From: Eledone cirrhosa
Lineage: Eukaryota
Length of the DNA: 64,000 nt
Assembly (NCBI GenBank): GCA_964016885.1
Contig: OZ024747.1
Location: 10,230,001-10,294,000 of the forward strand
Reading direction: 5' to 3'
Below the pieces are notes generated by a model, which saw nothing but the letters and a program-made list of their open reading frames with translations, did no database searches and was not told the DNA's origin. Positions 45,290-47,971 of the stretch are shown here, in pieces (the stretch's first letter is position 1; each line of letters opens with the position of its first letter). The position numbers and the translations under genes are program-made.

Positions 45290-45767
45290 GTATCTCGTTA
45301 AGGATGTGCTTGCTTGGAAAGTTTAAAGTTCCATTTAATTTAAAAATGTGAATCATTTACCACATTTGTGATTGCCAAACCAGTGAATTCCCTTTCTTTT
45401 AAAACACAAAATCTCCTACATACATGCTAAGAGTAAAACTCAAGAAAAAAATATATATATTTTATAGCAAGTCAGCCCCCCCTTCAATGGCCAATATAGT
45501 ATTTGTTTAAAGGATACAAGTTGATTAACTTGAAATTCTCATTTATTCAGTTTTAATATTTTAAATGGGGAGGAAAAAGGTAGAATCTCTAAAGTCCAAA
45601 TGAAGAATTACTACAGGTGTAAACCACAAAGGTCTGCAGGTGGGTTGAGCAAACAATTCAGAAAAACTGAATTTATTACAAGAGAAACCTGCTGCTTTCA
45701 GTAAAGTTGTATAATAATAGTAATAATAATAATAATAATAAAAATAAAAATAGAAATAATAATAATA

Positions 45768-45982
45768 ACGGTTTCTGATTTAGGCACAAGGCCTAAATTT
45801 GGGAGGAAGGAAAAGTCGATTAAATCGATCCCAGTGCATTACTGGTACTTTATTTTATCGACCTCATAAGGATGAAAGACAAAGCTAACCTTGGTGAGAT
45901 TTAAACTGAGAACGTAAAAGGCCATAACTCTATACCACAAAGCATGTTGTCCGATGCTCTACTGATATTATCAATCCACTGA
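45768..45982 (-). mobile_element. SINE family B inside the U12 intron
   Basis: Plus strand reads actggtactttattttatcgacctcataaggatgaaagacaaagctaacc. Embedded in (TAA)n. Confidence 0.8.
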
Positions 45983-46639
45983 ATAATAATAGTAATGGAC
46001 TGAAGTAAAACTGACAAATTGTTGTCTGCAAGTGAAAAGTCATTTTTAACAGTCACTAGTAAACAATAGTGTACCAACATCAAACACTGTGTTGTACTGA
46101 GAAAGAGAAAAGAAACTTATGTAATATTTCAGTCAAATATTCTCGTCATACCCAAACCAAAATCTTCATCTTTTTAAATCTACAATTGTCAAGGTAATTA
46201 ACGTCACAAATGATAAAAATTAATTAATACAGCAGAAGAGGAAATTAATATTCAAACAAACAAAAAAAAAAAAAGAAACATTGTTTGCTTCATATAAGAC
46301 CAAGTGTAAGGTAGATGATGTCAGAGACAACACTATATCCTCCCAAATTAGACAATATCTTAATTCCTCCATCTTCCCTGATGTTTAGTTTAAGGGAAGT
46401 TGCTACAATCTCATTCAAAAGAAACGTTGTTTTGTCACTAGAATGTTTACTTTTACCCTAGATTTTAAACACAATCACTACAAAATACACCATTTTTTGT
46501 ATCTATTATTATTATTATTAATTATTACTATTATTATTATTATTACCAGTAGCAACTCCCCTTAATAGGGGCAATTTAAATATTATTATTATCATTATAT
46601 ATATTTTTTGTAAGATGGGATAGAAAGCAAAACCCCCAC

Positions 46640-47014
46640 CTGAACAGAAACTTGTCAGATGATCCAGCCACAGCTGTATATAATGAAGTAATTGCATGTC
46701 TGGATATTATATCTTCAAACTCTTGACTTGCTTGAAACTTGCTATTTTCTGAATCTTGTCTTGTATTGGGACAGTAAACCAACAGCACTAGACTTCCCGA
46801 CATCTTCGATGCCTCTGGCATGAACCTCCAACCATTACAACTTTGTAGTTTTTCGGTATCTGTAGTACTTGCATACCATGCATCGCTAGCTCTTTGCTCA
46901 AAGCTTGAGGGGAACATTTGCCCGTTTTGTTTGTCTGTCCATTGCTCTTGCTAAGGTTAACCTTGACCACTTAGGAGGAGGCGAGCCTTGTTAGTATTTA
47001 TCTTTACTTGAGCT
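46640..47014 (-). other. Candidate U2-type poison cassette exon nested in the U12 intron
   Basis: Boundaries tctttcgtttctttttattag|AGCTC and TTCAG|gtgggg. 375 nt of non-repetitive, higher-GC sequence with stop codons in all three frames within the first ~60 nt. Confidence 0.6.
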
Positions 47015-47971
47015 CTAATAAAAAGAAACGAAAGACTGGCATAAAAATTTGATCATACCAAAACATTATTACAAACATTACAAAAGGTAAAAGGATTGCT
47101 TCTAAATACATAGGGAGTGAGAAATACAATTATATTTAATAAGTTCAAGGACTTAATGCTCCAGTTAGTATGATTTGTTTATAAAGGAGTGTTGAGGTAA
47201 AATAGGGACAGCTAATGATGCAAGTAAGTGAGTACTTGTACAGATTAAATATTTCATTTACTTATTAAATATCAAATATCAAGATTGAAAATTCAGAAAA
47301 TACATTCACAAGCATTTCAGAATATTATTCAAGAGCTAAAACCTTTCCCCAAATTTCAAGAGTTGTATTCCAGTTTGGAAGTGAAACCATTAACCAGACA
47401 TGCATTATTTTGACAATACAATTTATAAATCCAGTTTAATAGCACTATCTTTTTCTTTCTTGAACATTCTCAGAGGCATTTTTAATACAATAAAAATTAC
47501 ACACAAATTTAAATCATAATCAAAACATTTGTTTTGTGCGTAATAAGGAAAAAGAAATGATTTAATAATTGTCAGTTGTGCAGGTTTTCCAAGGAGAAAA
47601 GCTAACAACTATTCAATGAAATAATGCTACATCACAACAAACCATATCACCATTGTGGTACAATTCAGTGAGGTTTGTCTTAAATATACTCTAATTGGTA
47701 TCTAATGAAAGATTAATCTGGACAACAGTAGAAACAAAATCCTTAATAGACTAAAGAGAAATAGTTGCAGCAATATTATAAAGTTTCCAGTGCCATTTAA
47801 ATGATGGAGGAGGAAGACGAAATATTTTACTCATCCATCATAAATTCAATGTAAAGATTAAATATTTCTCAGAAGAGAAAACTAGAAAGAAAGAAAAAAA
47901 TAGTGTGACAAGTTGTTGTGATAATTAAACTGGATCAAAAATATTGCCGCCAATGGTTATGAAAAGGATAT

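What the first reader, a model, noticed from the sequence alone, without database searches (positions are those of the whole stretch)
45290..47971. Perfect U12-type AT-AC intron splitting RNP1 of the SR protein
Seen: donor ATATCCTTTT, branch TCCTTAAC ending 7 nt before the intron end (gagatAC), and in-frame restoration of RGFAYIQ/F. Established: AT-AC introns are very rare, and vertebrate SRSF10 carries a minor intron in its RRM. Inference: the position is shared with vertebrates and is therefore ancient. GT-AG-only gene predictors would mis-annotate this gene.
Basis: partly seen in the sequence, partly recalled or inferred. Interest (0 to 1): 0.7.

Follow-up and report, generated by a model that had tools for sequence, protein, structure and literature searches.

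The report
Ancient minor intron in octopus SRSF10
An octopus gene for the splicing regulator SRSF10 has a rare AT-AC intron in the middle of its RNA-binding motif, at the codon where vertebrate, tick and worm gene models also break, so the protein likely depends on the minor spliceosome, as is already known for mammals.

Summary
Confirmed, but ordinary. The minus strand holds an 8-exon SRSF10/12-like gene (227 aa, 223 identical to the Octopus vulgaris protein). Intron 2 (47971-45290, 2682 nt) starts ATATCCTTTT, has TCCTTAAC ending 7 nt before its AC end, and interrupts the Gln57 codon of RNP1 in phase 2. This join beats all 480 GT/GC-AG pairs tested.

The position is shared. Models that run into the intron read Gln-Tyr-Pro, the translation of the U12 donor. 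This occurs in 33 of 41 named short vertebrate models, and 5' or 3' U12 traces occur in 20 of 116 named invertebrate models, including molluscs, annelids, arthropods and amphioxus. The intron is therefore probably as old as Bilateria. Mis-annotation is real: one O. vulgaris model loses RNP1.

The mammalian intron is published (Meinke 2020), and molluscs are rich in minor introns. A mammal-like poison cassette inside the octopus intron is only a lead: the candidates are not above chance. No RNA evidence was available.

The parts
59061..59125 (-). Exon 1, coding part (ATG at 59125; 65 nt; RNP2); GT donor follows, phase 2 in codon 22
   Evidence: identical in translation to the O. vulgaris N-terminus
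47972..48076 (-). Exon 2 (105 nt), ends in the first two bases of Gln57 of RNP1
45290..47971 (-). U12-type AT-AC intron, 2682 nt, phase 2
47962..47971 (-). U12 5' splice site ATATCCTTTT
45297..45304 (-). U12 branch site TCCTTAAC; its two adenosines lie at -10 and -9 from the intron end
45290..45292 (-). 3' splice site TAC; no pyrimidine tract between branch site and acceptor
45186..45289 (-). Exon 3 (104 nt), rest of the RRM; GT donor follows, phase 1 after Lys91
40351..40483 (-). Exon 4 (133 nt), start of the RS region
40119..40163 (-). Exon 5 (45 nt)
39487..39522 (-). Exon 6 (36 nt); skipped in an annotated Octopus isoform (P0185)
38617..38721 (-). Exon 7 (105 nt)
38399..38489 (-). Exon 8, coding part to the TAG stop
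46640..47014 (-). Unproven candidate U2-type cassette inside the U12 intron (375 nt; pyrimidine tract and AG before, CAG|GTGGGG after; GC 41% against 31% for the intron; an early stop if joined to exon 1)
   Evidence: not above chance, 246 of 1000 shuffles give such a unit
45509..45517 (-). Unproven second U12-consensus donor GTATCCTTT inside the intron, 227 nt before the acceptor
   Evidence: 126 of 2000 shuffles contain one

Best explanation
Intron 2 of this octopus SRSF10/12-like gene has the full U12 signature (ATATCCTT donor, TCCTTAAC branch site, AC end) inside the Gln57 codon of RNP1, is likely removed by the minor spliceosome, and was likely inherited at this position from the bilaterian ancestor. 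Shown: the motifs, the restored reading frame, and U12 traces at the same codon in gene models of vertebrates, amphioxus, molluscs, annelids and arthropods. From established knowledge of the U11/U12 pathway (recalled): U11 pairs with the donor, U12 with the branch site, and U4atac/U6atac/U5 join exon 2 to exon 3. Inferred: because the intron cuts RNP1, functional protein would depend on minor splicing. Retention gives a stop 12 codons into the intron (68-aa peptide). Skipping both flanking exons gives a frameshift and early stop. The open GT/GC-AG alternatives all score below the AT-AC product against homologs. Minor-spliceosome activity would thus cap SRSF10 output, as measured in mammals.
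For: AT-AC join scores 408 against seven homologous RRMs; the best of 38 open in-frame GT/GC-AG joins (480 pairs tested) scores 375 and replaces FEDP with intronic sequence. The product is identical over aa 1-91 to the O. vulgaris / O. sinensis protein. Gln-Tyr-Pro read-through in 33 of 41 named vertebrate short models, of both SRSF10 and SRSF12 type, and in 13 of 116 named invertebrate models. Thr-Phe-Glu-Asp, the translation of an intron ending in AC, occurs in 11 of 116; 20 models show either trace. Background for Tyr-Pro after a purine is 40 of 30685 positions. The mammalian intron is AT-AC and needed for the coding mRNA (PMC7244321). The mouse minigene primers for exon 2 start and exon 4 end fit the same flanking intron phases as here, if they sit at exon ends.
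Against: No transcript from this species was seen. No orthologous genomic DNA could be aligned, so the shared position rests on translated gene models. Gln-Tyr-Pro cannot tell an AT from a GT donor in other species. The vertebrate search was limited to short proteins, so 33 of 41 is enriched for broken models and is not an error rate. The branch site is close to the acceptor (-9/-10), at the short end of the recalled range. One O. vulgaris model (P0186) uses GT-AG sites and might reflect real cryptic splicing.
Confidence: 0.93

Rival explanations
1. The AT-AC intron is real but is removed by the major (U2) spliceosome, as a few AT-AC introns are.
For: U2-type AT-AC introns exist (passage in PMC6283158). 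Spliceosome dependence was not tested here.
Against: That paper defines U2-type AT-AC introns by the lack of the U12 donor and branch consensus; both are perfect here, and there is no pyrimidine tract before the AC. The donor signature is kept across phyla.
Confidence: 0.02
2. The exons are normally joined at nearby GT-AG sites and the U12 motifs are coincidental or vestigial.
For: One O. vulgaris annotation (P0186) replaces GFAYIQ with other residues, consistent with a GT-AG join. Each motif alone is not above chance in the window.
Against: All 38 open GT/GC-AG joins score lower than the AT-AC join; the best eight visibly delete or disrupt RNP1 or the following residues. Two of three members of the same Octopus cluster (and P0004) and 94 of 116 named invertebrate models have intact RNP1.
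Confidence: 0.02
3. The intron arose independently at this codon in several lineages rather than being inherited.
For: No direct genomic alignment; the cnidarian state is unknown, as two coral proteins are simply intact.
Against: Same codon, same phase and U12 class in vertebrates, amphioxus, molluscs, annelids, ticks, a millipede and a sea spider. Minor intron gain is described as extremely rare (PMC10639083 section 24).
Confidence: 0.03
4. Beyond being a constitutive minor intron, it hosts a nested U2-type poison cassette (47014-46640, perhaps with the second U12 donor at 45517) that lets the protein limit its own expression, as in mammals. This adds to the best explanation rather than excluding it.
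For: Exon-like unit with a good acceptor (15 of 18 pyrimidines) and a 5-of-7 donor, GC- and purine-richer than the rest of the intron. It would bring an early stop. The human intron also has an internal U12 donor.
Against: Not above chance: 246 of 1000 and 126 of 2000 shuffles; two more such units lie in the same intron and three in intron 1. No competing GT donor scoring 4 of 7 or more in the first 320 nt, where mammals have one. No likeness to two vertebrate exon-3 motifs (6-7 mismatches). Its open frame has one close hit among 1.84 billion proteins, with a frameshift and reading through the proposed donor.
Confidence: 0.15

Closest known systems
Mammalian SRSF10 minor intron between exon 2 and exon 4 (Meinke et al. 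2020, PMC7244321; human chr1:24301568-24305202 hg19 in PMC6800510 Table S3)
   Same: Same gene family, AT-AC U12 class, after exon 2, same codon (Gln57) by read-through models, same flanking exon phases by primer positions; the coding mRNA needs this join.
   Different: Mammals have a competing downstream GT donor, a conserved poison exon 3 with a GA-rich enhancer and poly(A) site, and an internal U12 donor about 800 nt into the intron. Here no strong downstream GT donor and no exon-3 likeness were found, and the internal candidates are unproven. Length is 2682 nt against about 3.6 kb.
Vertebrate SRSF12 minor intron (chr6:89815250-89816872 in PMC6800510 Table S3)
   Same: The paralog has a listed U12 intron; SRSF12-type bat and sheep models read Gln-Tyr-Pro at residue 57.
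   Different: No regulatory study was found. The octopus gene is likely co-orthologous to both vertebrate paralogs, which form one clade in the RRM tree (no outgroup).
Drosophila prospero nested U2-in-U12 intron (passages in PMC8329584, PMC3564746)
   Same: Invertebrate AT-AC U12 intron in a coding region.
   Different: In prospero both routes give protein isoforms; here no productive U2 route exists.

Membership tests
U12-type (minor) intron, AT-AC subtype | 5' splice site RTATCCTT (consensus recalled; same motif quoted for GMFB in PMC7244321) | tested here: met
   ATATCCTTTT at 47971
U12-type (minor) intron, AT-AC subtype | Branch site TCCTTRAY close to the 3' end | tested here: met
   TCCTTAAC at -15 to -8; adenosines at -10 and -9
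U12-type (minor) intron, AT-AC subtype | AC 3' terminus without a polypyrimidine tract | tested here: met
   GAGATAC between branch site and exon 3
U12-type (minor) intron, AT-AC subtype | Removal restores the conserved reading frame | tested here: met
   227-aa ORF; best of 481 joins compared
U12-type (minor) intron, AT-AC subtype | Excision by the U11/U12/U4atac/U6atac spliceosome | not testable with these tools
   Needs RNA data or knock-down; no eukaryotic genome or read collection was available
SRSF10/SRSF12 (SRp38) family | One N-terminal RRM followed by an RS-rich region | tested here: met
   Pfam RRM_1 at 12-81, E 1.8e-21 for the near-identical P0004; 41 RS/SR dipeptides in the model
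SRSF10/SRSF12 (SRp38) family | Closest relatives are SRSF10/12, not other SR proteins | tested here: met
   Most named hits among the 120 listed are SRSF10/12-like, the rest unnamed or hypothetical; 64 of 91 RRM residues identical to Anolis SRSF12; SRSF2 scores only 73 bits
SRSF10/SRSF12 (SRp38) family | Orthology shown by a rooted tree with other SR families as outgroup | tested here: inconclusive
   Tree of 21 selected RRMs has no outgroup; vertebrate SRSF10 and SRSF12 group together 100/99
Mammalian SRSF10 nested-intron autoregulatory module | Competing major GT donor shortly downstream of the AT donor | tested here: not met
   No GT site scoring 4 of 7 or more before 47650 by a crude consensus count
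Mammalian SRSF10 nested-intron autoregulatory module | U2-acceptor poison exon inside the minor intron | tested here: inconclusive
   Candidate 47014-46640 is not above chance
Mammalian SRSF10 nested-intron autoregulatory module | Sequence conserved with vertebrate exon 3 | tested here: not met
   Two short exon-3 motifs taken from published primers match only with 6-7 mismatches; a weak test
Mammalian SRSF10 nested-intron autoregulatory module | Second U12 donor inside the intron | tested here: inconclusive
   GTATCCTTT at 45517; 126 of 2000 shuffles
Mammalian SRSF10 nested-intron autoregulatory module | Feedback of the protein on its own splicing | not testable with these tools
   Needs minigene or knock-down experiments

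The most novel reading that the evidence does not exclude
The octopus intron carries its own nested poison cassette (U2-type exon at 47014-46640, second U12 donor at 45517), so the coupling of SRSF10 levels to minor-spliceosome activity, and perhaps to temperature as in mice, is a bilaterian-wide circuit kept or re-invented in a cold-blooded mollusc rather than a vertebrate feature.
Probability: 0.15. Interest if true: 0.6.

Novelty: new member of a known kind. Interest (0 to 1): 0.27.

Why it matters
It extends a published mammalian minor intron to protostomes and amphioxus, dating the dependence of SRSF10/12 on the minor spliceosome to about the bilaterian ancestor. I found no paper stating this for SRSF10, but the pan-eukaryotic survey PMC10639083 included Octopus sinensis, so the intron is probably already in its data files, which I could not see. 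In practice it explains a recurring annotation error: at least 20 invertebrate SRSF10 models have a broken RNP1. The Gln-Tyr-Pro and Thr-Phe-Glu-Asp traces are a cheap way to spot the intron from protein databases alone.

Tried and rejected
GT/GC-AG alternatives: 480 pairs, 38 open and in frame, all worse than AT-AC.

Internal cassette as a coding exon: no Pfam match; 2 hits among 1.84 billion proteins, one a near-identical unnamed ORF with a frameshift and one a repetitive chance match.

Internal cassette and second donor as non-random: not supported. Use of the AG 4 nt before the AC by a GT-type U12 donor: rejected as unlikely, since that AG is only 5-6 nt from the branch adenosines (the minimum distance is recalled).

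A second AT-AC intron on the plus strand (donor-like 13322, acceptor-like 16082): the flanking translations show nothing recognisable, so treated as chance.

Rfam scan of 38000-60000: 17 weak matches, none at gathering score, none inside the U12 intron.

Whether plant SCL genes, the sister group of SRSF10 (PMC3173450), share the intron: searches and passages gave no answer; the preprint supplements that may list Arabidopsis AT-AC introns are closed. PMC2831892 supplement, PMC3564746 and PMC4379411 had no mention of the gene. Cnidarian homologs are intact and say nothing about the intron.

Full report
Observation. Exon 2 (48076-47972) ends GCCTACATTCA and is followed by ATATCCTTTT. TCCTTAAC at 45304-45297 is followed by GAGATAC, and exon 3 (45289-45186) starts ATTTGAAGAC. 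The intron is 2682 nt. It falls inside the Gln57 codon, phase 2, the seventh residue of the RNP1 octamer RGFAYIQF (octamer definition recalled). Neither motif is unusual on its own in 64 kb. Their joint position at a junction fixed by homology is: about 7e-5, 1.2e-3 and 0.025 for donor, branch site and YAC.

The gene. Eight exons from ATG at 59125 to TAG at 38399 give a stop-free 227-aa protein with one RRM and an RS region; the other six introns are GT-AG. It matches the Octopus vulgaris / O. sinensis SRSF10-like protein at 223 of 227 residues and fully over aa 1-91, Argonauta at 90 of 91, and Anolis SRSF12 at 64 of 91. The window is therefore from an octopus, though its protein differs from the listed ones at four residues. 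SRSF10 is described as conserved in bilaterians and sister to plant SCL proteins (PMC3173450, passages). In an RRM tree of 21 selected proteins without outgroup, vertebrate SRSF10 and SRSF12 form one clade, so the octopus gene is likely co-orthologous to both.

Is the AT-AC join the real one? I tested 480 GT/GC-AG pairs around the junction. 38 were in frame and open; the best scored 375 against seven homologous RRMs, compared with 408 for AT-AC. Retention gives a stop after 68 residues, and skipping exons 2 and 3 gives a frameshift. No transcript of this species was available, so the join is inferred from sequence and from annotated homologs.

Is the position shared? No eukaryotic genomes were on hand, so I used gene models that fail at this intron. 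Reading through the donor gives Gln-Tyr-Pro; reading in from an AC end gives Thr-Phe-Glu-Asp, sometimes preceded by a translation of the branch site. The search for short vertebrate-like forms gave 57 hits; 14 unnamed were left out, and of the 43 named, 41 are vertebrate. Of these, 33 read Gln-Tyr-Pro directly after RNP1, mostly at residue 57, from fishes, an amphibian, reptiles and mammals. That search selected short proteins, so the fraction is not an annotation error rate. Of 116 named non-vertebrate models, 94 have an intact RNP1, 13 show the 5' trace, 11 the 3' trace, and 20 either. They include gastropods, bivalves, annelids (Paralvinella, Capitella, Helobdella), Ixodes ticks, a millipede, a sea spider and amphioxus. 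The background rate of Tyr-Pro after a purine is 0.13%. The 5' trace cannot tell AT from GT donors; the 3' trace indicates AC. Two coral proteins are intact and uninformative. The intron is thus probably ancestral to Bilateria, and anything older is untested.

Mis-annotation. One of three models in the Octopus cluster (P0186) replaces GFAYIQ with residues that include the translated branch site and AC end. Most named models, including the RefSeq Octopus one, have RNP1 right.

How it most likely works. Shown: the U12 motifs and the fact that only their use gives a complete RRM. Recalled knowledge: U11 and U12 recognise donor and branch site together and the minor spliceosome completes the join. 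Inferred: output of this splicing regulator is limited by minor-spliceosome activity. In mammals this was measured: the AT-AC route makes the coding mRNA, a competing GT donor leads to poison exon 3, and RNPC3 knock-down lowers the coding form (PMC7244321, parts 1-2 of 5 read plus passages and supplement 1; also passages of PMC8329584 and PMC8522700). The mouse poison isoform is cold-induced (PMC7726792, passages).

Is the mammalian switch present? I looked for it and the result is inconclusive to negative. There is no GT donor scoring 4 of 7 or more in the first 320 nt of the intron (crude count). An exon-like stretch at 47014-46640 has a good acceptor, a fair donor and higher GC and purine content, but 246 of 1000 shuffles contain such a unit and similar units occur elsewhere in the gene. 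Its open frame has no Pfam match and one close unnamed hit with a frameshift that reads through the proposed donor. A second U12-consensus donor at 45517 recalls the internal donor of the human intron (PMC6800510 Table S3 rows), but 126 of 2000 shuffles contain one. These remain leads only.

Comparison and novelty. It works like, and by all sequence criteria is, a U12 AT-AC intron and the ortholog of the mammalian SRSF10 minor intron; membership in the mammalian autoregulatory module is not shown. AT-AC introns are about 26% of human minor introns, molluscs are relatively enriched in minor introns, and Octopus sinensis was part of the pan-eukaryotic survey (PMC10639083, passages and section 24; its data files not seen). 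Nine literature searches found no paper on this intron in invertebrates, but the library lacks most subscription journals. Other papers were seen only as passages, term searches or supplement lists and gave nothing on the point: PMC545797, PMC6283158, PMC1636356, PMC3564746, PMC4379411, the DROL1 preprint (supplements closed), PMC2831892 (supplement search) and PMC7367187 (supplement list). File 4 of PMC6800510 could not be searched.

Verdict. A real, well-formed and conserved minor intron: a new member of a known kind. Interest 0.27. The novel reading, a conserved or convergent poison cassette, has probability about 0.15 and would deserve about 0.6.

Noticed in passing
window 8680-29920 (+): Exons of a LIM-domain-binding protein gene (LDB1/2, Chip-like): LIM_bind match at 8578-8949 (below cut-off) and LID domain at 29672-29920, E 1.3e-12. 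It lies tail to tail with the SRSF10-like gene.
   Followed up: partly
window 40497-44617: A 38-bp minisatellite of about 110 copies fills most of intron 3 and ends 14 nt before the exon 4 acceptor, so the branch point of that intron probably lies in the repeat unit.
   Followed up: no
window 45725-45997: A dispersed repeat with several other copies in the window (75-97% identity) sits inside the U12 intron; one of the good-looking internal acceptors (45792) lies in it.
   Followed up: partly
window 37200-37973 (-): Decayed mariner-type transposase just downstream of the gene; Mos1 HTH domain match, E 7e-6.
   Followed up: no
window 52879-53358 (+), 26968-27243 (-), 22261-22770 (+): Open frames that resemble ends of LINE retrotransposon proteins (resemblance recalled; no Pfam match).
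   Followed up: no
vertebrate SRSF12 (P0126, P0127; PMC6800510 Table S3): SRSF12 also has a U12 intron at this position, although PMC7244321 calls Srsf10 the only SR protein with a minor intron.
   Followed up: partly
window 39487-39522 and 38617-38721 (-): RS-region exons vary: an Octopus isoform lacks exon 6 (P0185), and the Argonauta model lacks most of the sequence matching exon 7 (P0003).
   Followed up: partly
window 13322 and 16068-16082 (+): A U12-like donor and a branch-site/AC pair 2.76 kb apart inside the LDB gene span, without recognisable coding flanks; treated as chance.
   Followed up: partly
P0005 and P0017: An unnamed ORF and the Paralvinella model share similar read-through peptide for about 15 residues after the donor, hinting at conserved intronic sequence just downstream of the U12 donor in that lineage.
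   Followed up: no
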